DNA of 42,020 nucleotides from a virus. This document shows, piece by piece, positions 669 to 30,977 of the stretch. Where the stretch lies: IMG/VR virus record IMGVR_UViG_3300045988_133592, positions 1-42,020 of that record, one strand, 5' to 3'. Each line of letters starts with the position of its first letter. The first letter of the stretch is position 1. Made by a program: the position numbers and the translations under genes. The notes under the pieces were generated by a model. The model was not told the DNA's origin. It worked only from the letters and a program-made list of their open reading frames with translations, and did not search any database.

Positions 669-901
669 TGAAGCCAAAACGCTGTGAAGGCTGCGGCGCC
701 CTCTTTGATCCCAAAGCCGGGAACCAGCGTTACTGTGGGCCCGCATGTTACCGGTTAGCCAGAGAGCGTCAAAAGCTGGAAGCAGCAAAACCAAGAGAAA
801 AGCGGATGGCCATACCGGAGATTGAGGCAGCGGCCAGAAAACACGGTTTAACTTACGGGCAATTTACTGCCAGAATGAGAATGGAGGACATGAGTGACTG
901 A
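665..901 (+). CDS. small zinc-ribbon protein
   Basis: CEGCG...CGPAC Cys4 motif. Start overlaps the previous stop (ATGATGA). Confidence 0.45.
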   Translation: MMKPKRCEGCGALFDPKAGNQRYCGPACYRLARERQKLEAAKPREKRMAIPEIEAAARKHGLTYGQFTARMRMEDMSD

Positions 902-1334
902 AAAAGAGCGAAAAACCATTGAATGGTTACAAGAGTATGCTGGTATTGATGAACGGATCGATCGGCTGGAAGATGAGGTTGAACGGCTGCGAACAAGACT
1001 TGAAGGTGTCAGCGCCCAGGTGATCGACGGGATGCCGAAAGCCCATGACCGGAAAAAAGGGCCGGAGAAGCTGATTCTTGAGCTTGAGAAGCTGGACACT
1101 GAACTGACAACCGAGATCCTCAACCTGAGAAAAAAGCGTCTGGATATTCTGGAAGCCGTGAACAGCATTCAGGAACCCAGGCTTCAGGTGTTGATCGAGT
1201 ACCGTTATATTGACTTTAAGCACTGGGAGGAAATCTGCCACGATTTACACTATTCCTGGGACACGGTACATCGCTGGCATCGTGAAGCTATCCGAAAAAT
1301 AAAAGTTCGTACACAATCGTACACAGATCTATGA
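894..1334 (+). CDS. late-gene transcriptional activator, sigma-70 region-4-like (ArpU/RinA/DUF1492-type)
   Basis: C-terminal EYRYI...W..I...L..S..TVHRWHREAIRKI HTH resembling sigma r4. Lies upstream of terS as in many Firmicute phages. Coiled-coil N-terminal half. Confidence 0.55.
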   Translation: MTEKERKTIEWLQEYAGIDERIDRLEDEVERLRTRLEGVSAQVIDGMPKAHDRKKGPEKLILELEKLDTELTTEILNLRKKRLDILEAVNSIQEPRLQVLIEYRYIDFKHWEEICHDLHYSWDTVHRWHREAIRKIKVRTQSYTDL

Positions 1335-1387
1335 TATTATGTTAGTATGAGAATTTAAAAAGAGGCTACGGTTATGCAACGGAGGAA

Positions 1388-1567
1388 ATGGAAAATATGA
1401 AAGAAAAAATAGTAGTTGAAATTGATTCTGCTATGAGTTTGTGTGGAAATTGCCAATACAAAAACGAAAATGGTGCTTTTTGTGAGCTTTTTAAATACAG
1501 AATAGAGAGGGAAAACAATGGATTTAAAAGATGTGCGCAATGCTTGTGTTCTCGATCTATGTTGTAG
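1388..1567 (+). CDS. Cys-rich zinc-ribbon-like small protein (59 aa) in an AT-rich accessory cassette
   Basis: Not in the ORF track (<60 aa). GGAGGAA RBS 5 nt upstream of the ATG at 1388. CGNC...C...CAQC motif. Low GC. Confidence 0.4.
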   Translation: MENMKEKIVVEIDSAMSLCGNCQYKNENGAFCELFKYRIERENNGFKRCAQCLCSRSML

Positions 1568-1569
1568 GA

Positions 1570-1598
1570 TTGTTTTTTTATTATATCCATAGTATAAT
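1570..1598 (+). promoter_or_regulatory. sigma-70-like promoter (TTGTTT-17-TATAAT)
   Basis: -35 at 1570-1575, 17-nt spacer, TATAAT at 1593-1598, then the 1614 ORF. Confidence 0.4.
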
Positions 1599-1613
1599 AG
1601 CCAGAAAAAGACT

Positions 1614-2513
1614 ATGGAGAAATGTATGGTAAGTAGTGATAAAAAACGTTGTTTTGTTATTATGCCAATCAGCGATCACAAAAATTATTCCGAAGGACAC
1701 TTTACAAGAATTTACGAAGATCTGTTTAAACCTGCAATTGAAGAAGCTGGTTATGATTCGTATCGTGTCGACGAAGATAAGATTTATGATTCAATAATTG
1801 CAAAAATTTTTGAAAACATTCAAGAATGCGATATGTGTCTATGTGATCTAAGCAGTAGGAATCCCAATGTACTGTATGAATTAGGATTAAGGCAAGCGTA
1901 CGATAAACCGGTTGTGCTTGTTCAAGATGATCGAACAGAGACTATCTTTGACGTTGGTGGAATTAATACAGTATTTTATAAAAGCGGCAGATTATATGAT
2001 GAAGTTATAAGTGATCGGTCAAAAATAGTTGATGCAATAAGAGCGATGGAAGACGCAAAGGGGTCCCCATCCTTAGTAAAAGTTGTAAATGCACAAAAAG
2101 CTGTGATTGATAATTCTAAAGTCAGCACAGGTGATCAGAGCGAAGTGATGCTTTCAATAATTTTAAGAGAATTGAACGAAATTAAAAACCGAGACGAAAC
2201 TGTTCGTACATATAAGAGAGATGACGATTTCTTTCTTGAAAACAACAAAAGCAGTCGTACAACACTTCTAAATGCAATGAATGAATTTGAAGAATGTCTT
2301 AATGATTTAATGTTTAGAATTACACATGCAAAAATCTTGTCATCGAGAGAATTTATGGCATTAAGACGTCGTTACAGAGCGTTAGCAGATGAATATGAAG
2401 CTGCTAATGCAAAGGGCCCCTCAAAAGAACTATTTGAAATTAAATTGCGTGATATAGAGAATGAGTTAATTAAAGTAAAATCTTTGATGAAGGATAACTC
2501 TACTAAATATTAG
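1614..2513 (+). CDS. accessory-cassette protein with an N-terminal NDT/TIR/SLOG-clan Rossmannoid domain (nucleoside 2-deoxyribosyltransferase/DNPH1-like signature) and a C-terminal helical domain
   Basis: FVIMPIS beta-1 motif. CDLSSRNPNVLYELGLRQAYDKPVVLV motif: conserved Glu after beta-4, then KPVVL strand. C-terminal ~150 aa helical or coiled. Strongly AT-rich relative to flanks. Weak SD. Confidence 0.45.
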   Translation: MEKCMVSSDKKRCFVIMPISDHKNYSEGHFTRIYEDLFKPAIEEAGYDSYRVDEDKIYDSIIAKIFENIQECDMCLCDLSSRNPNVLYELGLRQAYDKPVVLVQDDRTETIFDVGGINTVFYKSGRLYDEVISDRSKIVDAIRAMEDAKGSPSLVKVVNAQKAVIDNSKVSTGDQSEVMLSIILRELNEIKNRDETVRTYKRDDDFFLENNKSSRTTLLNAMNEFEECLNDLMFRITHAKILSSREFMALRRRYRALADEYEAANAKGPSKELFEIKLRDIENELIKVKSLMKDNSTKY

Positions 2514-2562
2514 CTATACACTAACTATTATGTATGATTATGACTTAAATATTATTAAAGAA

Positions 2563-2590
2563 GGCGTCGGGAAACCGGTGTCTTTTTTCG
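2563..2590 (+). terminator. weak rho-independent terminator
   Basis: TCGGgaaaCCGG short stem followed by TGTCTTTTTTC. Confidence 0.3.
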
Positions 2591-2612
2591 TGCCAGAAAG
2601 TGAGGTGATCTT

Positions 2613-3071
2613 ATGGGCATGACCGAAAAACAAAAGCGATTCGCGGATGAATACTTAATCGACCTGAACGGAACAAGGGCCTATAAGGTCGCTTATCCGC
2701 GGGTGAAAAGCGATGCAACAGCAAAAGCAGCAGCGAGCAGATTGTTAACAAATGTTAACGTCAAAACATACATCGACGAACAGCTTGAGAAAATACACAA
2801 CGAAAAAACCGCCGACGCGCAGGAGGTGCTGGAATACCTGACCGCTGTCATGCGCAACGAACAGACCGAGGAGGTCGTGGTGGTTGAAGGAACCGGTGAC
2901 GGCTGCTCTGAAGCGCGCACAGTGGAGAAAGACACCAGCATTAAGGATCGGGTCAAGGCCGCAGAGCTGATCGGCAAGCGTTATAGCCTCTTTACCGACA
3001 AGGTCGAGCACGGCGGCGACATTGGGGGTGTGGTGATTGTCAATGACATCCCAAAACCAGACACCGGTTAA
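2613..3071 (+). CDS. terS: terminase small subunit (Terminase_2 family)
   Basis: KQKRFADEYL...NGTRAYKVAYP N-terminal signature. GAGGTGA RBS. Immediately upstream of terL. Confidence 0.85.
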   Translation: MGMTEKQKRFADEYLIDLNGTRAYKVAYPRVKSDATAKAAASRLLTNVNVKTYIDEQLEKIHNEKTADAQEVLEYLTAVMRNEQTEEVVVVEGTGDGCSEARTVEKDTSIKDRVKAAELIGKRYSLFTDKVEHGGDIGGVVIVNDIPKPDTG

Positions 3072-20516: not shown

Positions 20517-22799
20517 ATGGCCATTAAGATGCGGCGTGGCGCCGATGCGGATTTTCGTCCAGAAAAAATGCAGCCTGGAGAACTTGCTGTAACAGTAGAC
20601 GGTACACGAAAGGTTTATGCCGCGTTTGCCGCAGGTGACGTGAAAGAGCTGTCTTCAAAAGAAGATGTCGATAAAACCATTGCCAGTGGTCTACAGTCAC
20701 TTGAAACCAGCACTAATAACAAGCTTCAATCCCTTGAGAAAAAAGCCAGTAGTGCGGTCGATAAAATAAGCAGTGAAAATCAGCGGGTGCAGGAAGAACT
20801 TTCGCGGTATGAGTACTACACCAAGACCGAAAGCGATCTGAAATACACCGTTTCCCCGCGGAAAGAAGCGTCAAGCGCCAATGGAGAACTGAAACTAACC
20901 GATGCCGATGATGGGCTATCATATATAGAATTACAGGGGAATAGTGAACAGTATACTAATACGGCAAGTATTAATCTATTTGATATAGAATACCAAAGGT
21001 CTTTGGGATTAGATAGCACAGATAAATTTTTAAGAACGACCGGAGAAATAGATGTTTCTGGAAATTGGAGCTATAGCTACTATATTAAGGTGGCACCATC
21101 CAAAACGTATTCTTTTATAGGAGTACCAGCATCACCTGCGGCGGCTTTTGTATTTTATACTAAAGATAAGACATACATTAGCGGTATAACAACAAAAGAT
21201 GCCGTAATTGCAGGATTAAGAGCAGTAACAACGCCAAGTAATTGTGAATGGATACGTGTCTCTTATGTGTATAATAGTGAGCCATTTAAAATGTATTTAG
21301 GTCAACCACCATCACAAGGTGTTGTTGGTGCAGTAGATACACCAAGTCCTGATTATCCATCTGAAGTGCAAAGTGTTGGAGACATCCCAAAAGATATTAA
21401 TGGTGTGGAGATACGAAATTTATTCAATAATGATGCAGTATTTAAAAGTACAGATGGACAAGTATTTTCATATATAGAATTAGGAGATTTTACTGGTAAT
21501 GCTTCTTATACTATGTACAAGATGCCGGATAATCCAATGGAAGGATTATTTGTAAGATTATCAACAGATATAACAAAATGGAATACAGATGAAGTGGATG
21601 TCCAAATTATTGCAAATAATATATATTCACGAACTGTTGGATTACAATATTCCTTTAAACCGCCACGTGGGACAAAACTTTATTTAAAGGTGACACAAAC
21701 TACAGATAACACACCACTTAGAATACCAACAGATGAAGAATTAAAAAGTTTGTTTGATACAATGAAATTTATGGTTACACAAACCACAGAGGTCGACGAA
21801 TACCGCCCTTATATTGGAGAAAATAATGGCCTTGTAAAAATAGAAAGCCAAGGGAAGAACTGGTTTGAAGGTAAAGGTATAGTAGTTGGGAATATAAATG
21901 CAAGCGGAGCGCCATCGTATAATGCAAAGGTGTTGCGGACGGACTTTATAGAGTTAGATAGCAATAAACAATATGTATTTAATCCAGGAACATATACACC
22001 ATACATATATTTGTATGATATTAATAAGACTTTTATTAGGCCTGTTAATGGTGTATCAAAATTTAATTCAGAAAATGCTAATTATGTAATATTACAGTTT
22101 AATTCTAATCCGTCAGTAGAACAAACGCAGGCCGATATTGACAACATGAATAAGACACTACAATTAGAAGAAGGGACACAGGCAACAGAATACCAGCCAT
22201 ATCACCAACAAATTACATGGATACCGTTAAGGGAACCACTGCGGAAGATTGCGGATTACGCGGACAGTATTGATAAAGATGGAAATGTAATACAACAATC
22301 TTTATTAAGCGAGTATAACGGGAGTGAAGTATGGTATCTTGATACCCTTTATTACGATGGAGTGCCTTGGAATAGATATTATATAGCCATACAAGGTTTT
22401 GTGAAGTATTCCGATACAACCGTTGGACAAACCAGTTTAAATAACTTATTTAAGCTAGGAGAAAAAGGCCAGACATCTTTAGCTGCAAAGTTATATACAA
22501 TTACAAAAAGGACTAGTGACGGAAAATCAATTGTCTATTGTTCTCTAAATGGGACAGAAACAATAGATGAGTTTAAAGCATTATTACAGAAAGAAAGCAT
22601 GATTGTTTATTGTGTGTTAGAAAAACCAATCACCTATCAGATCCCCGCCGTCTACATCGAAACCTACGACCAGGAAACCAATGTAAGGTGCTTGAACAAA
22701 GTAAAACCATCCGATATGACACTGGACTATAAGATAGCCATGAGCAGTCTGATCAAGCGCCTGGAAGCCCTGGAAGAAAAGACCGTACAGGAGGTATAA
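20517..22799 (+). CDS. tail fibre / receptor-binding protein
   Basis: N-terminal MAIKMRRGADADF...PGELAVTVDGTRKVY motif typical of phage fibre N-termini. Central part markedly AT-rich. 760 aa. Confidence 0.6.
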   Translation: MAIKMRRGADADFRPEKMQPGELAVTVDGTRKVYAAFAAGDVKELSSKEDVDKTIASGLQSLETSTNNKLQSLEKKASSAVDKISSENQRVQEELSRYEYYTKTESDLKYTVSPRKEASSANGELKLTDADDGLSYIELQGNSEQYTNTASINLFDIEYQRSLGLDSTDKFLRTTGEIDVSGNWSYSYYIKVAPSKTYSFIGVPASPAAAFVFYTKDKTYISGITTKDAVIAGLRAVTTPSNCEWIRVSYVYNSEPFKMYLGQPPSQGVVGAVDTPSPDYPSEVQSVGDIPKDINGVEIRNLFNNDAVFKSTDGQVFSYIELGDFTGNASYTMYKMPDNPMEGLFVRLSTDITKWNTDEVDVQIIANNIYSRTVGLQYSFKPPRGTKLYLKVTQTTDNTPLRIPTDEELKSLFDTMKFMVTQTTEVDEYRPYIGENNGLVKIESQGKNWFEGKGIVVGNINASGAPSYNAKVLRTDFIELDSNKQYVFNPGTYTPYIYLYDINKTFIRPVNGVSKFNSENANYVILQFNSNPSVEQTQADIDNMNKTLQLEEGTQATEYQPYHQQITWIPLREPLRKIADYADSIDKDGNVIQQSLLSEYNGSEVWYLDTLYYDGVPWNRYYIAIQGFVKYSDTTVGQTSLNNLFKLGEKGQTSLAAKLYTITKRTSDGKSIVYCSLNGTETIDEFKALLQKESMIVYCVLEKPITYQIPAVYIETYDQETNVRCLNKVKPSDMTLDYKIAMSSLIKRLEALEEKTVQEV

Positions 22800-24233: not shown

Positions 24234-24830
24234 ATGACGCTATGGAGTGATATAGCAATACAGCAGTTTTTGACTGCAATCGGGAAAGATTTAGGCCCGT
24301 CTGGGATTGATGGAGAACTTGGAGATAAAGGCTCAGACAGCTATTCAAGACGCGCAATTGCCAGCTTTCAGGGCGATTATGGACTGGATCAGGATACGAT
24401 TTGGGGTGAACAATGCCAGTGTAAAGCAAAAGAAATTTTAACAAATGGTATTCAGTTGACCACAAATTTCAATTCAAACGAACTGGGATGCGGCATCGCT
24501 GTGAGTGATGATGCGGGCGCTCCGCATGATGATGACTGCATGAACTGGCCGGATATGATCAACCTGACAGCGCTCAACTGCTTACAGGCTACACGCGACC
24601 GCATTGGGCCGATTCAAGTGACCAGTGGTGTACGTTGCAGAACTTACAACGACTGGCTGTCCGGCAGCAGCAGCGAGAGTAAGCACATGGCAGGCCGTGC
24701 ATTCGATTGTAATGCTATGGGAGCCGTGGGTTATGAAACACTGCTGCAAATTGGTTTGGAATGCGGTTTTACATGGGGATACGTGGGGAATGGTTACGTT
24801 CATCTGGAATATGATGGCCCCAGTTTTTAA
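24234..24830 (+). CDS. endolysin: peptidase M15 (VanY/L-Ala-D-Glu peptidase type) with an N-terminal PG_binding_1-like domain
   Basis: SKHMAGRAFD (H..G.A.D) and VHLEYD zinc-ligand motifs. N-terminal G..G..D...S..AI..FQ..YGLD peptidoglycan-binding pattern. Confidence 0.7.
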   Translation: MTLWSDIAIQQFLTAIGKDLGPSGIDGELGDKGSDSYSRRAIASFQGDYGLDQDTIWGEQCQCKAKEILTNGIQLTTNFNSNELGCGIAVSDDAGAPHDDDCMNWPDMINLTALNCLQATRDRIGPIQVTSGVRCRTYNDWLSGSSSESKHMAGRAFDCNAMGAVGYETLLQIGLECGFTWGYVGNGYVHLEYDGPSF

Positions 24831-26087: not shown

Positions 26088-27062
26088 ATGTGTACGGCAG
26101 CGACATACACAACAAAAGATCATTATTTTGGTCGTAATCTTGATTTGGAATTCTCCTATAATGAAACGGTAACAGTAACACCACGAAATTATCCGTTTCA
26201 GTTCAGAAAGGTAAAAGCACTGGAATCTCATTATGCTATGATTGGTATGGCCTTCGTTGTGGATAATTATCCGCTGTATTATGATGCCACCAACGAAAAG
26301 GGACTAAGCATGGCAGGATTGAATTTTCCAGAAAATGCGGACTATAAACAAGAAGCAGAGGGAAAAGATAATGTAACCCCATTCGAGTTTATTCCCTGGA
26401 TTTTAGGGCAGTGCGCTACCATCAAAGAGGTAAAAGAACTCCTTGGTAGGATTAATCTTATCAATATCAATTTTAGTGAAAAATTACCTCTTTCACCCTT
26501 GCATTGGATGATATCGGACCGGAACGAATCGATAACTGTGGAATCTGTAAAAGAGGGGATGAAAATATATGATAACCCTGTAGGAATTTTAACCAATAAC
26601 CCAACTTTTGATATTCAGATCTTCAACCTAAATAATTATGTGAACATCACCAGAGAAGTACCCGAAAATCGTTTTTCAAGCGCAATAGCTTTAGATGTTT
26701 ATAGCCGTGGTATGGGGGGGATTGGAATTCCTGGAGACCTTTCTTCGTCCTCTCGTTTTGTAAAAGCAGCATTTACTAAACTAAATTCCGTCTCTGGAAC
26801 TTCTGAATCTGAAAGCATTAGTCAGTTTTTTTACATACTTGGTTCAGTCAATCAAGAACGCGGATGTGTTCGTTTAGCCGAAGATACGTATGAAATAACT
26901 ATTTATAGCTCTTGTTGCAATGTTGATAAGGGAGTTTATTACTATAAAACTTACGAAAATAGCCAAATAACAGGCGTAGATATGCATAATGAAAACCTCG
27001 ACAATCAAAGTCTTGTCTCTTATCCATTAATTAAAGAGCAACAGATAAAAATACAAAACTAA
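26088..27062 (+). CDS. bsh: choloylglycine hydrolase family Ntn-hydrolase (bile salt hydrolase / penicillin V acylase)
   Basis: Begins MCTAATYTTKDHYFGRNLDLEFSYNETVTVTPRNY. Nucleophilic Cys2 and the canonical BSH/PVA N-terminal signature. 324 aa. AT-rich. GGAGGTG RBS. Extended -10-like TTGTATAAT promoter at about 26050-26061. Confidence 0.9.
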   Translation: MCTAATYTTKDHYFGRNLDLEFSYNETVTVTPRNYPFQFRKVKALESHYAMIGMAFVVDNYPLYYDATNEKGLSMAGLNFPENADYKQEAEGKDNVTPFEFIPWILGQCATIKEVKELLGRINLININFSEKLPLSPLHWMISDRNESITVESVKEGMKIYDNPVGILTNNPTFDIQIFNLNNYVNITREVPENRFSSAIALDVYSRGMGGIGIPGDLSSSSRFVKAAFTKLNSVSGTSESESISQFFYILGSVNQERGCVRLAEDTYEITIYSSCCNVDKGVYYYKTYENSQITGVDMHNENLDNQSLVSYPLIKEQQIKIQN

Positions 27063-27694: not shown

Positions 27695-28834
27695 TTATTC
27701 ATTCGCTTTTTGAGCCTTTTCGTCTAAAATTTGGACATATTTGGACTGCTCTTCCAATGAAACGTGCGTGTAAATATTGGCTGTTGTGGCAATATCACTG
27801 TGCCCCAGTAAGGACTGAACCATTTTTATATCTTTCGTTTTTTCATAAAGCCGTGTGGCGTAGGTATCTCGGAAATCGTGGAGGTTGAGAGATTCTAATC
27901 CAATTTCTTTGGCGAAATCTATGAGAGCGCGGCCAACCGTTGTGGCAGCCAGGTAATTACCAAAATCATTAGGAAAAACTAAGTTAAGATTTTTGTACTT
28001 ATTGGAGAGTAAAAGACGTCTTTTGTTTTGCTCGACTTTATGCTGTTTTAACTTTTCGACAAGAAAACGAGGGATCGGTACCTGCCGGATGCTGTTTTCT
28101 GTCTTTGGGGGACCGATAGGCTGGTCTTTATTCCGCTGGTCATAAGTTTTGTTTACGTCGATGATTCCTTTTTCCAGATCGATGTCATCCCATGTTAATG
28201 CCATAATTTCACCGCGGCGAAGTCCGGAGTTTAGATCTGTCAAAATAAATACTTCCCATTTTGTTTCGGCGCAGGCCTTAATAAGCGCGTTTTCCATGTC
28301 GAGCGAGAGAGCTTGGCTGGCACGGCGGCTTTTTTCCTGTTTCTTTTTCGCTTCTGGAAGCACGATTGAACGCGAGAAGTCTATCAAAATCTTTCCTTGT
28401 GTAAAAGCATAGCGAATGCACGGATTAATGACGACGCTGAGGGTTTTGAGCGTCGGCTTACTGATGCCATCAGAGACCAGTTTACTGTAGTGCTCTTGAA
28501 TATCCAAGGCAGTTAAGTCTTTAAGTTGAATATTGGCAACAGGATAGGGAAGGACATACCTTTCAAAAAGCCCCTTATACTTTGTTTTGGTTGCCTGTTT
28601 TTTATTATTTAAATGGACATCATTGAGCCATTTTTCCATATAGTCTCCGAAATATGCCTTTTCCGATGTAACGCCACGATCCAGTTCATTTTTTAAACGG
28701 CGAATTTTGTCTTCGAGTTCTGTAACAGTTCGGCCATAGAGATCGCGTGGCGTCCTTAGATTTTTATGCCGAAGCCGGTAAAAATAATATATGGTGCCGT
28801 TTTTAATCTTTTTTCGATATTTAGTACGCGGCAT
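27695..28834 (-). CDS. int: tyrosine integrase
   Basis: Catalytic R...HDFRDTYATRL...LLGHSDIATTANIYTHV (R, HxxR, Y). Start taken at MPRTKY (28834) with AGGAGG 6 nt upstream. The listed N-terminal 23 aa are rejected. Confidence 0.9.
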   Translation of the reverse strand: MPRTKYRKKIKNGTIYYFYRLRHKNLRTPRDLYGRTVTELEDKIRRLKNELDRGVTSEKAYFGDYMEKWLNDVHLNNKKQATKTKYKGLFERYVLPYPVANIQLKDLTALDIQEHYSKLVSDGISKPTLKTLSVVINPCIRYAFTQGKILIDFSRSIVLPEAKKKQEKSRRASQALSLDMENALIKACAETKWEVFILTDLNSGLRRGEIMALTWDDIDLEKGIIDVNKTYDQRNKDQPIGPPKTENSIRQVPIPRFLVEKLKQHKVEQNKRRLLLSNKYKNLNLVFPNDFGNYLAATTVGRALIDFAKEIGLESLNLHDFRDTYATRLYEKTKDIKMVQSLLGHSDIATTANIYTHVSLEEQSKYVQILDEKAQKANE

Positions 28835-28866
28835 ATTGTACCTCCTTAATTTTGGGCATAAAAATG

Positions 28867-28889
28867 CCCGGTATATGGAAAATACCGGG
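28867..28889 (-). promoter_or_regulatory. hairpin plus U-tract immediately upstream of the int RBS (attenuator or partial terminator)
   Basis: CCCGGTAT-atggaaa-ATACCGGG. On the minus strand it is followed by CATTTTTAT and then the int RBS. Confidence 0.4.
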
Positions 28890-28942
28890 ATAATGTGGTA
28901 CAATAAGCTTGTTGAGTGGCTTAGTGTACCCGACTTACCCCG

Positions 28943-29151: not shown

Positions 29152-29955
29152 TTAGTAAACATCAAACGATACGACTTGAGGATTGTCGGTAGTGCCTGTA
29201 ACTCTCGCCTCACAATTCAATTTCACATCCGCGTTAAAAGCGTTTGTTACCGTTGCTTCGGCTTTTAAATACCATGTATTTTCATCTTCTGGTTCTTCAG
29301 CGAGCTTCCCGATAACCCAGTGCAGCTTAAAACCGTAAGGATACAGGCTGCTACCATATCTCTCTACGGCCTCCCAAGCGTAAGCCGGATCCAGTTTAGA
29401 TTCTAAAGCGGCTTTAGCGGCGGCCGCGGCTTCATTGCTTGCAATATTTTCGGGAGTATTGACAACAAACTGAGCGGTTTTTTTGATATCGCTAATTGTT
29501 TTCGCTTTTGTTACAACCCATCCTGCCAGTTCATCATCTGTATATGTATCTATTACATCTGAAAAATCAAGGCCGCTTTGCTCATAAACATACGTGACAG
29601 AATAGCCATAGTCTTGGACTTTTGCCCTTGCGTCTAGTAGAGGACTTCCAGACAAGGATTCGATATCTGGCGACGCCGCAGTCGGCGAGGGGGCGGGATT
29701 TGATTTTGACTGATTTTGTGTTGTTTGCGCTGTTTGCGTTGGCTTAGGAGAGAATAAAGCGCCCAACCAAATGATCGAATAAATAGCAAGAACTATTGTT
29801 AATACAATTCTTGCTGTTTTTCCAAATTGCTTATTAACCCACATCATAATGAGCCCAGCAGGTGGTATAAAGATGATCAGTAAAATTACAAACCAATTCT
29901 TCTTGTAAAAAGGTGTTTTTTCAACACTACCGCCGTTGTTCATTTCTTCATTCAT
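29152..29955 (-). CDS. membrane protein between int and repressor. Candidate superinfection-exclusion or lysogenic-conversion protein.
   Basis: Two N-terminal TM helices, a Pro/Ser/Thr-rich linker and a C-terminal soluble domain. AGGAGGAAAAAGAA RBS. Own promoter (TTTTCA-17-TGTATAAT) at about 29975-30010 on the minus strand. This is the classic sie location. Confidence 0.5.
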   Translation of the reverse strand: MNEEMNNGGSVEKTPFYKKNWFVILLIIFIPPAGLIMMWVNKQFGKTARIVLTIVLAIYSIIWLGALFSPKPTQTAQTTQNQSKSNPAPSPTAASPDIESLSGSPLLDARAKVQDYGYSVTYVYEQSGLDFSDVIDTYTDDELAGWVVTKAKTISDIKKTAQFVVNTPENIASNEAAAAAKAALESKLDPAYAWEAVERYGSSLYPYGFKLHWVIGKLAEEPEDENTWYLKAEATVTNAFNADVKLNCEARVTGTTDNPQVVSFDVY

Positions 29956-30134: not shown

Positions 30135-30977
30135 CTACAATTCCACAAAACCTTCAATCTTCTTCCCAAGAACTTTCCCTTGAATCACAAACGTTGAGAA
30201 CTCACTGATCTGGATCGGTGCGTATTCGGGGTTGTGAGAGATCAGTTCATCGTCACCATACTCTTTTATGAAACATTCACCGTCCAGATAAAAAACACCG
30301 ATATCACCAATATTGAGGGTATTTGTATGTTGGATATAAACAGTGTCCCCATTGGAAATAGTAGGTTCCATAGAATCTCCAGCAACATTCATGGTGGTGT
30401 CTGCACCTTCCGGAAGTTCGTCCTCTGGGACTTCAATTGTGACCATTTCCGTGTTGTCGTTATACTGACCGCCGCCAGCACCGTAGGCCCCCTCAAAGTG
30501 GTTAATCTTAACCTTTTTGCAGTCTTTCTTTGGAATGGGCGGGGCGTTATTGGCGGTGCCGCCATGCCGGATTCTTTTGGCATAAAGTTCAAGCCGCTCT
30601 TCGGATTCTTCTTTGAGCGCTTGAAGTTCGGTTTCGTGCTGTTGATTGTATATAAGCTGCTCATACTCATATTCGAGTAACATATCAATTGCTCCCTTTG
30701 GCCTTTTTTCAAGTTTTCTATACTTTGTCAGAAAATCTTGTTCGGCAAGAGTAGTTGTGAATTCCATTGGCTTTGTGTCCATATCATCCTGATAAAGATA
30801 GTTTGCATCACATTTAAGAGCATCAAATAATTTGAATAAGATTTCTACTTTTGGGACACTAACCTCATTTTCATAGTTTGCTATTGATCCCTTTGTCACA
30901 CCAATTAGTTTGGCTAACTGTTCTTGGGTTAACCCTATATTTAAACGTCTTTCCTTAATTCGGCTACCTACACTCAT
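30135..30977 (-). CDS. CI-like repressor (XRE HTH plus LexA-like S24 peptidase)
   Basis: N-terminal IGLTQEQLAKLIGVTKGSIANYE HTH. C-terminal AGDSMEPTI...GDIGVF...IKEY S24 Ser/Lys dyad. Confidence 0.9.
   Translation of the reverse strand: MSVGSRIKERRLNIGLTQEQLAKLIGVTKGSIANYENEVSVPKVEILFKLFDALKCDANYLYQDDMDTKPMEFTTTLAEQDFLTKYRKLEKRPKGAIDMLLEYEYEQLIYNQQHETELQALKEESEERLELYAKRIRHGGTANNAPPIPKKDCKKVKINHFEGAYGAGGGQYNDNTEMVTIEVPEDELPEGADTTMNVAGDSMEPTISNGDTVYIQHTNTLNIGDIGVFYLDGECFIKEYGDDELISHNPEYAPIQISEFSTFVIQGKVLGKKIEGFVEL

What the first reader, a model, noticed from the sequence alone, without database searches (positions are those of the whole stretch)
1335..2612. AT-rich two-gene accessory cassette upstream of terS: a Zn-ribbon peptide plus an NDT/TIR/SLOG-clan Rossmannoid protein. 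Candidate nucleotide-targeting defence or counter-defence module.
The segment between the late regulator and terS is visibly much more AT-rich than both flanks. It carries its own promoter-like elements (1332-1340 and 1570-1598) and a weak terminator (2563-2590). The 299-aa protein has the FVIMP...NPNVxYExG...KPVVL signature shared by nucleoside 2-deoxyribosyltransferase/DNPH1-like N-glycosidases, LOG/SLOG and TIR-like enzymes. Members of this clan act as nucleotide- or NAD-degrading effectors in several defence systems, and this domain is fused to a ~150-aa helical domain of unknown function. A 59-aa Cys-rich protein is co-oriented immediately upstream. That this pair acts as a phage-borne superinfection defence or an anti-defence nucleotide scavenger is inference only, based on fold and location.
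Basis: partly seen in the sequence, partly recalled or inferred. Interest (0 to 1): 0.75.

Follow-up and report, generated by a model that had tools for sequence, protein, structure and literature searches.

The report
Phage-borne TIR/NDT-like enzyme with hypervariable tail
A temperate gut phage carries, in a cargo-swapping hotspot just before its DNA-packaging genes, a gene from a very large unnamed protein family that joins a strictly conserved nucleotide/NAD-cleaving-type enzyme domain to a hypervariable tail. This is the layout of recently described one-gene "suicide on infection" antiviral systems, but nothing about its function has been tested.

Summary
Bases 1350-2555 are the most AT-rich 1.2 kb of this 42-kb temperate phage (32.8% GC; flanks 50.5%; GC3 0.25-0.30 against about 0.6). 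The segment encodes a 56-aa five-Cys protein and a 295-aa protein.

The family is very large (9,438 50%-identity clusters at E<=1e-10), spans many phyla, and has no conserved partner gene. N-domains are all alike. C-tails fall into 147 unrelated classes among 254 sequences.

The regulator-terS gap is a true hotspot. Related phages have it empty or filled with other AT-rich cargo (PDC-S34, a 2TM effector domain, HicB).

The 1332-1340 promoter-like element and the 2563-2590 hairpin belong to the phage's late-operon leader, not the cassette. The Cys peptide accompanies only two cassette lineages.

Best reading (about 0.5): a prophage-expressed, stand-alone TIR-like N-glycosidase (NADase-type) abortive-infection protein with a variable sensor tail, analogous to Swarozyc/Evangelion. 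Function is inferred, not shown.

The parts
894..1334 (+). Putative late-gene transcriptional regulator (DUF1492 / phrog_36). It is the left border of the hotspot and is not part of the cassette.
   Evidence: Pfam DUF1492 E 2.2e-6 and phrog_36 'transcriptional regulator' E 3.8e-26. The same gene type lies about 260-290 nt upstream of the family gene in roughly 50 related viral loci.
1308..1340 (+). Putative late promoter of the phage backbone. It has two direct repeats CGTACACA (1308-1315 and 1318-1325) followed by an extended -10-like TGATATTAT (1332-1340).
   Evidence: Read from the sequence. Analogous layouts of 2-3 direct repeats plus a -10-like element sit at the 3' end of the regulator gene in other phages, including ones with an empty site. 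Function is inferred.
1397..1567 (+). Small five-Cys protein of 56 aa (alternative start 1388 gives 59 aa). Pattern: CxxC-9-C-16-CxxC. It has no promoter of its own, so it would be transcribed from the upstream (late) promoter.
   Evidence: ORF. The 56-aa start was called on identical contigs. It is 45% identical to the 57-aa protein upstream of the P0002 cassette, with all five Cys conserved and 12 of 25 identical residues using different codons. No other relatives were found in the 5.8-billion-cluster library (a word-seeded search, which could miss distant relatives), IMG/VR or JGI metagenomes. There are no Pfam, PHROG, NCBIfam or PADLOC hits. The AF2 model is unreliable.
1570..1598 (+). Cassette-internal sigma-70-like promoter for the large gene: TTGTTT (1570-1575), 17 nt, TATAAT (1593-1598).
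   Evidence: Read from the sequence. It is conserved as ATTGTxTTT...CATAGTATAATA in the divergent L008/L011 cassettes. It fails the scan tool's 4-of-6 rule for the -35 hexamer. Activity has not been shown.
1626..2513 (+). 295-aa protein (299 aa if started at 1614). It has a TIR/NDT-like N-domain, a conserved helical linker and a hypervariable helical tail. Residue numbers below use the 299-aa frame.
   Evidence: ORF. 1,151 homologues were found. 21,369 cluster representatives score E<=1e-3 and 9,438 score E<=1e-10. phrog_3634 E 2e-30, function unknown.
1647..2057 (+). N-terminal Rossmannoid (flavodoxin-like) TIR/NDT-clan domain, residues 12-148. The predicted catalytic Glu89 is the codon at 1878-1880.
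2166..2510 (+). Hypervariable C-terminal tail, about residues 185-299, predicted as helical hairpins or a coiled coil. Proposed sensor/assembly module.
   Evidence: AF2 predicts helices 172-210, 212-239, 244-264 and 271-298 at pLDDT about 60-80. Among 254 family tails, only 2.8% of pairs are BLAST-detectable and there are 147 unrelated classes. This tail is a singleton. By contrast 100% of N-domain pairs are detectable.
2560..2590 (+). Hairpin plus T-run about 22 nt before the terS start. It is a constant feature of the terS leader (phage backbone) and also serves as the terminator behind the cassette.
   Evidence: Fold energy -15.6 kcal/mol, z -2.75. A hairpin at the same position, with different stems, is present in related phages with and without cargo.
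2613..3071 (+). Terminase small subunit. It is the right border of the hotspot.
   Evidence: Pfam Terminase_2 E 8.7e-33. The family gene ends 58-100 nt before terS in most related viral loci where terS was detected.

Best explanation
The cassette is a 'moron': foreign cargo inserted into the leader of the phage's late operon, at a recombination hotspot between the late regulator and terS.

Its main gene encodes a stand-alone immune-type protein with three parts:
- an N-terminal TIR/NDT-clan N-glycosidase domain (catalytic Glu89), most likely an NADase of the Cap12/Pycsar-TIR type or a closely related nucleotide glycohydrolase;
- a conserved helical stalk;
- a hypervariable C-terminal tail.

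Proposed mechanism (inferred, not shown). The gene is transcribed from its own constitutive promoter in the lysogen. The protein sits autoinhibited. The variable tail recognises a component of a superinfecting phage. Binding re-arranges or oligomerises the enzyme domains. NAD+ (or another nucleotide) is then destroyed, and the infected cell arrests or dies before the invader matures. This protects the lysogen population and with it the resident prophage.

The five-Cys 56-aa protein is a lineage-specific add-on, not a core component. Because it lacks its own promoter and lies directly behind the late promoter, it may modulate or switch off the effector during the prophage's own lytic cycle. That last point is speculative.
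For: Shown:
- Foreign composition: the lowest-GC window of the genome. The same about 30% GC holds for family genes in 94 loci whatever the phage background.
- True hotspot: phages with related terS have the site empty (L194-L196) or filled with other AT-rich cargo. These include PADLOC defence candidate PDC-S34 (E 5e-59), the CyanoTRADDas 2TM domain (E 1.3e-11) and a HicB antitoxin (E 2.8e-15).
- TIR/NDT-clan fold, with an enzyme-like invariant residue set (E89 and N85 in 352 of 352).
- Sequence-level affinity is strongest to immune TIR effectors: PADLOC CBASS TIR in 70 of 70 members (best E 4e-9) and Pfam CAP12-PCTIR_TIR in 67 of 70.
- A conserved enzyme core with an unrelated tail in almost every lineage: 147 tail classes among 254 sequences.
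- Single-gene unit: no conserved neighbour in 77 genomic loci from many phyla. Neighbours include integrases, IS elements and several defence hits such as AbiL, AriA/B, an RT, a CBASS phospholipase and AbiEi.
- Lysogeny-type placement in other temperate phages. In S. pyogenes 315.2 and S. mitis SM1 the gene has the integrase/repressor orientation inside the early region. In S. aureus phiSa2wa it is antisense within the replication module. In an E. coli prophage it lies next to a canonical TIR gene.
- Own promoter conserved between divergent cassettes.
- This phage is temperate: it has an integrase and a cI-type repressor, and an identical gene occurs on contigs up to 237 kb.

Precedent: single-gene TIR-like core plus helical stalk plus variable AUX domain acting as phage-protein-triggered NADases (Swarozyc, bioRxiv 10.64898/2026.05.01.722283; Evangelion, bioRxiv 10.64898/2026.06.25.731849).
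Against: - There are no experimental data for any member found in the held literature.
- No curated family or defence model is passed: Pfam NDT 22 bits against a cutoff of 28.8, Cap12 TIR 13.6 against 24.7, NCBIfam none, and PADLOC only a weak domain hit.
- The best structural match is MilB, a CMP/hmCMP hydrolase, and UniProt auto-annotation of a viral relative says the same. The substrate could therefore be a nucleotide rather than NAD+.
- In this phage the cassette lies downstream of the putative late promoter, so it would also be expressed during lytic growth. That is compatible with a phage-benefiting role.
- Defence-gene enrichment around genomic homologues is only modest and was not quantified against a background. 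Many neighbours are housekeeping genes.
- Promoter activity in the lysogen is not shown.
- The C-tail model has only moderate confidence.
Confidence: 0.5

Rival explanations
1. Counter-defence or phage-benefiting enzyme. On this reading the protein is made during the phage's own lytic cycle from the late promoter. It would hydrolyse an immune signalling nucleotide (cADPR isomers, cyclic oligonucleotides) or scavenge and remodel the nucleotide pool, in the manner of MilB, BlsM or DNPH1.
Against: - The hypervariable tail on an invariant core is not expected for a metabolic or signal-degrading enzyme.
- The family is mostly chromosomal across many phyla, often with no phage genes nearby.
- In streptococcal and staphylococcal prophages the gene has the lysogeny orientation or is antisense to lytic genes.
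- It has its own conserved promoter.
- The site is dispensable: it is empty in related phages.
- No DNA-modification genes are linked to it.
Confidence: 0.17
2. Two-gene toxin-antitoxin or addiction module. The large protein would be a nucleotide-depleting toxin and the five-Cys peptide its antitoxin or regulator, stabilising the prophage or acting as a TA-type abortive-infection pair.
For: The pair has been co-inherited through deep divergence (45% and about 48% identity) and moved together into at least two phage backbones. The two genes are co-oriented and 58 nt apart. TA cargo (HicB) occupies the same hotspot in another phage.
Against: - The peptide is absent from all 80 viral and 77 genomic loci of the family examined, so the large protein does not need it.
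- Only two peptide clusters turned up in the searches.
- The two genes have separate transcription signals, with a promoter between them. This differs from typical autoregulated TA operons.
- The peptide's fold is unknown.
Confidence: 0.13
3. Non-catalytic nucleotide sensor or adaptor. The TIR/SLOG-like domain would bind a nucleotide ligand and the helical tail would act on another target, for example regulating lysis-lysogeny or packaging.
For: The TIR-DrHyd-SLOG clade includes non-catalytic sensors (PMC9503650). The gene sits next to the late regulator and terS.
Against: - The catalytic-type Glu and a full set of polar pocket residues are invariant in about 350 sequences.
- The site is empty or differently filled in related phages, so there is no core regulatory or packaging role.
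- Family members sit at many unrelated genomic positions.
Confidence: 0.07

Closest known systems
Swarozyc (KpSwz) and Evangelion (Eva01): DUF4062 TIR-like single-gene defence systems (bioRxiv 10.64898/2026.05.01.722283 and 10.64898/2026.06.25.731849)
   Same: - One gene.
- An N-terminal TIR-like alpha/beta core with a conserved N-terminal aromatic residue and a catalytic Glu about 75 residues later (F14...E89 here; F11...E87 in Eva01).
- A helical stalk followed by a highly diversified auxiliary C-terminal region.
- Carried on mobile elements, including prophages.
   Different: This protein is not DUF4062: no PF13271 hit in any of 70 members. Its motifs differ (CFVIMPIS and NPNVLYELG here, against the acidic-SYT and Q/W/E motifs there). 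Its sequence affinity is to Cap12-type TIR and NDT instead. NADase activity, trigger and defence phenotype are demonstrated for Swarozyc and Evangelion but are untested here.
CAP12/Pycsar-type TIR effectors (PF10137), for example TIR-STING of CBASS (PDB 9lmq)
   Different: All hits are below the curated threshold (13.6 bits against 24.7). There is no STING, SAVED or other cyclic-nucleotide sensor domain. No cyclase or any other conserved partner gene is present. The tail is hypervariable rather than a conserved ligand sensor.
NDT-superfamily N-glycosidases: MilB/BlsM (CMP/hmCMP hydrolases), DNPH1/Rcl and nucleoside 2-deoxyribosyltransferases (PF05014)
   Different: The Pfam score is below threshold (22 bits against 28.8). 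CFVIMPIS replaces the N-terminal nucleoside-binding motif of NDTs. There is an extra stalk-plus-tail of about 150 aa. The gene is mobile, AT-rich and single, rather than part of a biosynthetic or salvage operon.
Retron-Ec86 (Eco1) NDT-like effector (bioRxiv 10.1101/2023.08.16.553469)
   Same: It is a precedent for an NDT-like N-glycosidase domain used as an abortive-infection effector.
   Different: The retron effector works with a reverse transcriptase and msDNA. No RT or ncRNA is associated here.
SpbK of ICEBs1 (single TIR-domain abortive-infection protein; PMC11984713) and the phage-encoded TIR+SLATT pairs noted by Iyer et al. 2022 (PMC9503650)
   Same: These are TIR proteins carried on mobile elements or prophages, proposed or shown to limit superinfection by NAD+ depletion. 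Iyer et al. explicitly suggest kin-selected superinfection limitation for phage-borne TIRs.
   Different: They are canonical TIR families. The phages named by Iyer et al. (Javan281, SN10) are not among the 60 phage records that carry this family, and no SLATT partner is present here.

Membership tests
Nucleoside 2-deoxyribosyltransferase family (Pfam PF05014) | Profile match at or above the curated gathering score | tested here: not met
   22.0 bits against a cutoff of 28.8, E 1.9e-4, covering residues 53-110 only. 59 of 70 relatives give similarly weak hits.
Nucleoside 2-deoxyribosyltransferase family (Pfam PF05014) | Flavodoxin-like Rossmannoid fold with the nucleophile Glu after the central strand | tested here: met
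Nucleoside 2-deoxyribosyltransferase family (Pfam PF05014) | N-glycosidic bond cleavage or transfer on (deoxy)nucleosides or nucleotides | not testable with these tools
   Requires an enzyme assay.
CAP12/Pycsar TIR effectors (Pfam PF10137) | Profile match at or above the curated gathering score | tested here: not met
   13.6 bits against a cutoff of 24.7 for the window protein. The best E-value among 70 relatives is 2.8e-4. The PADLOC CBASS TIR effector model hits 70 of 70, best E 4e-9, and that library has no curated cutoff.
CAP12/Pycsar TIR effectors (Pfam PF10137) | Coupled to a cyclic-nucleotide sensor domain (STING or SAVED) and encoded with a cyclase (CBASS or Pycsar operon) | tested here: not met
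   There is no such domain in the protein. The neighbours are a regulator and terS. No conserved neighbour is seen in 77 genomic loci.
DUF4062 TIR-like NADases (Swarozyc/Evangelion; Pfam PF13271) | DUF4062 profile match with its Q/W/E and acidic-SYT motifs | tested here: not met
   PF13271 is not among the hits for the window protein at E<=1, nor in the family list for 70 relatives at E<=0.1.
DUF4062 TIR-like NADases (Swarozyc/Evangelion; Pfam PF13271) | Architecture: single gene with a TIR-like core, helical stalk and diversified auxiliary region, carried on mobile elements | tested here: met
   AF2 domains. The core is conserved and the tails fall into 147 classes among 254 sequences. The gene occurs in prophage and mobile-element contexts.
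DUF4062 TIR-like NADases (Swarozyc/Evangelion; Pfam PF13271) | Phage-protein-triggered NAD+ hydrolysis causing abortive infection | not testable with these tools
   Requires phage challenge, escaper mapping and NADase assays.
Phage 'moron' / accessory-gene hotspot cargo | Composition deviating from the host phage, and presence/absence or replacement polymorphism among related phages at the same site | tested here: met
   Lowest-GC window of the genome. The site is empty in L194-L196 and carries different AT-rich cargo in L178-L193.
Phage 'moron' / accessory-gene hotspot cargo | Own promoter and terminator | tested here: inconclusive
   An internal promoter-like element is conserved between divergent cassettes, but it fails the strict consensus scan and its activity is untested. 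The downstream hairpin belongs to the phage's terS leader.
Type II-like toxin-antitoxin pair (small ORF + large ORF) | Obligate co-occurrence of the two genes across the family | tested here: not met
   The small ORF is found only in the window lineage and the P0002 lineage. It is absent from the other 157 loci examined.
Thoeris (ThsB TIR + ThsA effector) | TIR gene adjacent to a ThsA-type effector (SIR2/SLOG or Macro) | tested here: not met
   No such neighbour is present in the window. There is no conserved neighbour in related loci and no PADLOC Thoeris hit.

The most novel reading that the evidence does not exclude
The family is a previously unnamed, very widespread single-gene immune family, distinct from DUF4062, Cap12 and ThsB. 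Its TIR/NDT-like core may attack a nucleotide other than NAD+, such as a (d)NMP or (d)NTP N-glycosidic bond. In this phage lineage it has acquired a late-promoter-driven five-Cys 'self-antidote' that switches the resident effector off when the prophage itself enters the lytic cycle. That would be a built-in solution to prophage autoimmunity.
Probability: 0.1. Interest if true: 0.8.

Novelty: new variant of a known kind. Interest (0 to 1): 0.6.

Why it matters
If the reading is right, this gene represents a very large unnamed protein family: 9,438 clusters at 50% identity score E<=1e-10, across many bacterial phyla and many temperate phages of gut, streptococcal, staphylococcal and enterobacterial hosts. 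No model in the copies of Pfam, NCBIfam, PHROGs (function) or PADLOC searched here covers it.

It would add a third sequence-distinct lineage to the emerging class of one-gene 'TIR-like enzyme plus variable sensor' abortive-infection systems, alongside canonical TIR proteins such as SpbK and the DUF4062 systems Swarozyc and Evangelion.

It would also identify the late-regulator/terS leader of Lachnospiraceae phages as a defence-cargo hotspot that can be mined systematically.

The extreme tail diversity (147 classes in 254 sequences) offers a natural library for studying how such sensors acquire new specificities.

For gut-microbiome phage biology and phage therapy, it would be one more prophage-borne barrier to superinfection.

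Tried and rejected
- Sequence search of the PDB with the protein and with a 70-sequence profile gave nothing significant (BlsM at E 0.07-0.16).
- NCBIfam gave no hit.
- PADLOC gave no system-level hit, only a weak CBASS TIR domain hit.
- DUF4062 membership was rejected.
- Small Cys protein. There were no family hits. Two searches of the 5.8-billion-cluster library found only the two known clusters. IMG/VR was searched by peptide patterns and by a degenerate DNA pattern, and JGI metagenomes by the same pattern, with nothing found. The AF2 model is unusable at pLDDT 43, so the Zn-ribbon fold is neither confirmed nor refuted.
- A Foldseek search against AFDB50 was not available.
- Rfam over 1100-2800 gave no RNA family.
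- A repeat search gave no flanking direct or inverted repeats that would indicate a transposon or integration cassette.
- A search for a conserved partner gene in 77 genomic loci found none.
- The idea that the gene has a packaging-related core function because it always abuts terS was rejected. Related phages have the site empty or carry unrelated cargo, and family members sit elsewhere in other phages.
- The idea that this is the phage TIR+SLATT family of Iyer et al. 2022 was rejected. Their example phages are not among the 60 phage records holding this family.
- Literature searches for an experimental characterisation of this family found none.
Full report
**What is there.** The window is a complete temperate phage genome, circularly permuted.
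- It has a tyrosine integrase (27695-28903, minus strand), a cI-type HTH/S24 repressor (30135-30977, minus strand), a Rha protein, a replication module at 34-42 kb, and a late module starting with terS at 2613.
- An identical copy of the 295-aa protein occurs on contigs up to 237 kb, so the phage also exists as an integrated prophage.

**The compositional claim is correct and strong.**
- Bases 1350-2555 have 32.8% GC, against 46.0% for the genome and 50.5% for both flanks.
- This is the lowest of 817 same-length windows.
- GC3 is 0.25-0.30, against 0.52-0.61 in the neighbouring genes.

**Genes and signals.**
- Two co-oriented ORFs are present. From the ribosome-binding sites, and as called on identical contigs, the real starts are probably 1397 (56 aa) and 1626 (295 aa).
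- The promoter-like element at 1570-1598 (TTGTTT-17-TATAAT) fails the strict scan. It is nevertheless conserved, as ATTGTxTTT...CATAGTATAATA, in a cassette whose coding DNA is only about 55% identical. It is therefore probably functional.
- The hairpin at 2560-2590 is real (-15.6 kcal/mol, z -2.75, T-run).
- Comparison with phages that have related terS but no cargo (L179, L194-L196) changes the picture. Both the 1332-1340 element and the hairpin about 22 nt before terS are features of the phage backbone. The 1332-1340 element is an extended -10 preceded by two CGTACACA repeats at the end of the regulator gene.
- The cargo is therefore inserted into the leader of the late operon.
- No flanking repeats and no Rfam RNA are present.

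**The site is a hotspot.**
- In 80 IMG/VR loci carrying relatives of the large gene, where the flanking genes were detected it usually lies about 260-270 nt after a DUF1492-type regulator and 58-100 nt before terS.
- The gene is always about 30% GC, in backgrounds that average about 41-45% GC. The same holds in an E. coli phage, at 34% against 49-55%.
- Conversely, phages with related terS have the site in different states:
  - empty (L194-L196);
  - filled with a PADLOC defence candidate, PDC-S34 (L192, E 5e-59);
  - filled with proteins carrying the CyanoTRADDas 2TM domain (L191, E 1.3e-11; L186 only a weak sub-threshold hit, E 0.005);
  - filled with a HicB antitoxin (L188, E 2.8e-15);
  - filled with several proteins of unknown function.
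- All of this alternative cargo is AT-rich.
- This excludes a core packaging role and places the cassette among conflict-type morons.

**The large protein: N-domain.**
- AlphaFold2 with a 70-sequence alignment gives a confident beta-alpha-beta domain for residues 12-148, followed by helices.
- At the sequence level no curated threshold is passed: NDT 22 bits against 28.8, Cap12-type TIR 13.6 against 24.7, NCBIfam none.
- Weak hits are nonetheless systematic. All 70 relatives hit the PADLOC CBASS 'TIR effector' model (best E 4e-9), 67 of 70 hit PF10137 and 59 of 70 hit PF05014. None hits DUF4062.
- Across 352 aligned relatives from phages and many bacterial phyla, Glu89 and Asn85 are invariant. 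Asp78, Asn83, Ser80, Gly91, Arg93, Phe112, Asp113, Tyr122, His29 and Arg51 are nearly so.
- This is the pattern of an active enzyme whose Glu sits where the NDT nucleophile and the TIR catalytic Glu sit.
- Whether the substrate is NAD+ (TIR-like) or a nucleotide (MilB/DNPH1-like) cannot be decided from sequence.

**The family.**
- A profile search of 1.84 billion cluster representatives finds 21,369 proteins at E<=1e-3, 9,438 at E<=1e-10 and 673 at E<=1e-30. Most of the listed hits are about 250-345 aa.
- Close relatives with the same motifs occur in Bacillota, Bacteroidota, Pseudomonadota, Acidobacteriota, Verrucomicrobiota, Planctomycetota and others.
- In 77 such loci there is no conserved neighbouring gene.
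- Neighbours are a mixture of housekeeping genes, integrases and IS elements, and some defence genes (AbiL, PARIS AriA/B, an RT, a CBASS phospholipase, AbiEi, Cas1). This suggests defence association but was not quantified against a background.
- The most telling feature is the contrast between the two halves of the protein. All N-domain pairs among 263 sequences are BLAST-detectable (median 52% identity). Only 2.8% of C-tail pairs are, and the tails fall into 147 unrelated classes among 254. The window's tail is a singleton.
- A short helical linker after the core is still conserved (consensus ...SxEDKxEIML...).

**Position in other temperate phages.** All of these are moron-like, lysogeny-compatible placements.
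- In S. pyogenes 315.2 the gene lies beyond int and the repressor, in their leftward orientation, inside the early region.
- S. mitis SM1 has the same arrangement.
- In S. aureus phiSa2wa it is antisense within the replication module.
- In phiEf11 it lies between the ArpU regulator and the genome end next to terS.
- In a lambdoid Klebsiella phage it lies between the replication and nin regions.
- In an E. coli prophage present in 24 of 5,426 complete genomes it sits next to a canonical TIR gene inside the replication module, and PGAP calls it 'hypothetical protein'.

**The small Cys protein.**
- It is a real gene. It is 45% identical to the 57-aa protein in the same position of the P0002 cassette, with all five Cys conserved. 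Twelve of 25 identical residues use different codons, and 1.9% of shuffles give such an ORF.
- The pair has moved together into at least two phage backbones.
- It is not a family component. It is absent from the other 157 loci examined, and only two clusters of it were found in the 5.8-billion-cluster library, IMG/VR and JGI metagenomes.
- Its fold could not be modelled.
- It has no promoter of its own and lies directly behind the putative late promoter, whereas the large gene has its own promoter. This suggests, but does not show, different timing of expression.

**Interpretation.**
- The evidence best fits a prophage-expressed, stand-alone TIR/NDT-like N-glycosidase with a variable sensor tail that aborts infection by superinfecting phages.
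- This is the architecture and logic experimentally established in 2026 for the DUF4062 systems. Swarozyc has a TIR-like core plus helical stalk plus AUX domain, forms an autoinhibited tetramer, and is a portal-activated NADase. Evangelion is the second example.
- The same logic was proposed on theoretical grounds for phage-borne TIR genes by Iyer et al. 2022.
- The present family fails the DUF4062, Cap12-TIR and NDT membership tests. It is therefore best described as a sequence-distinct new variant of this kind.
- Rival readings are a counter-defence or nucleotide-metabolic enzyme, a TA pair with the Cys peptide, and a non-catalytic sensor. They are less well supported, mainly because of the hypervariable tail on an invariant catalytic core, the chromosomal single-gene distribution, the lysogeny-type placements and the dispensability of the site.
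- None of this has been tested experimentally. I found no characterisation of any member in the held literature.

Noticed in passing
window 26088-27062 (+): A full-length choloylglycine/bile-salt hydrolase family gene (Pfam CBAH, E 1.6e-106). It lies between the endolysin (24234-24830) and the integrase (27695-28903, minus strand), which is the classic lysogenic-conversion position. It is in an AT-rich stretch (36.7% GC, GC3 0.31). A bile-salt hydrolase carried by a temperate gut phage could alter host bile tolerance or the bile-acid pool.
   Followed up: partly
window 1308-1340 and 2560-2590; L179, L194-L196, L178, L008, L192: Every phage of this group has the same late-leader layout, with or without cargo. 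Two or three direct repeats plus an extended -10-like element sit at the 3' end of the DUF1492 regulator gene. A hairpin plus T-run sits about 20-25 nt before the terS ATG. Stem sequences differ between phages. Hairpins are also shuffled: L178 has the window-type hairpin upstream of its cargo and the L008-upstream-type hairpin downstream. Why a terminator-like hairpin sits between a late promoter and terS is unexplained. Possibilities are antitermination, RNA processing, or an anchor for recombination.
   Followed up: partly
L178-L193 (the regulator-terS gap of phages with related terS): Other cargo occupies the same hotspot. It includes PADLOC candidate PDC-S34 (L192 2414-3415), CyanoTRADDas 2TM-domain proteins (L191 2837-3373 at E 1.3e-11; L186 1948-2394 only weakly, E 0.005, below threshold) and a HicB-like antitoxin with a 60-aa upstream ORF (L188 2764-3435). 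Several AT-rich ORFs of 146-266 aa have no family hit (L178, L180, L182, L183, L185, L193). These are candidates for further unknown conflict genes.
   Followed up: partly
window 29152-29955 (-): A 266-aa ORF lies between the integrase and the cI-type repressor and is co-oriented with them. It has no Pfam hit. This is another typical position for a prophage-expressed accessory or exclusion gene.
   Followed up: no
window 20517-22799 (+): This is the second AT-rich island of the genome (about 34-38% GC, GC3 0.30). It lies inside a 760-aa distal tail gene with no Pfam hit, probably a horizontally exchanged receptor-binding protein.
   Followed up: no
L205 7510-9918 (E. coli WP3-W18-ESBL-08 prophage); also L012: In an E. 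coli prophage found in 24 of 5,426 complete genomes, the family member (WP_001551510.1, 'hypothetical protein') lies three genes from a canonical 'TIR domain-containing protein' (WP_001551506.1). Both interrupt a DNA-polymerase/VRR-NUC/SNF2 replication module.
   Followed up: partly
L001 4911-6096 (Dorea phage DO134P1): In the cultured Dorea phage DO134P1, two further hypothetical genes and a tRNA-Met lie between the family gene and terS. The hotspot can therefore hold multi-gene cargo.
   Followed up: no
A1 alignment; P0004, P0007, P0030, P0052, P0060 and others: The commonest C-tail class (82 of 254 sequences) does not look like a coiled coil. It shows a recurring 'LKxGITxxEI...RxGxxL.V' pattern that suggests a small alpha/beta domain. 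It was not modelled.
   Followed up: no
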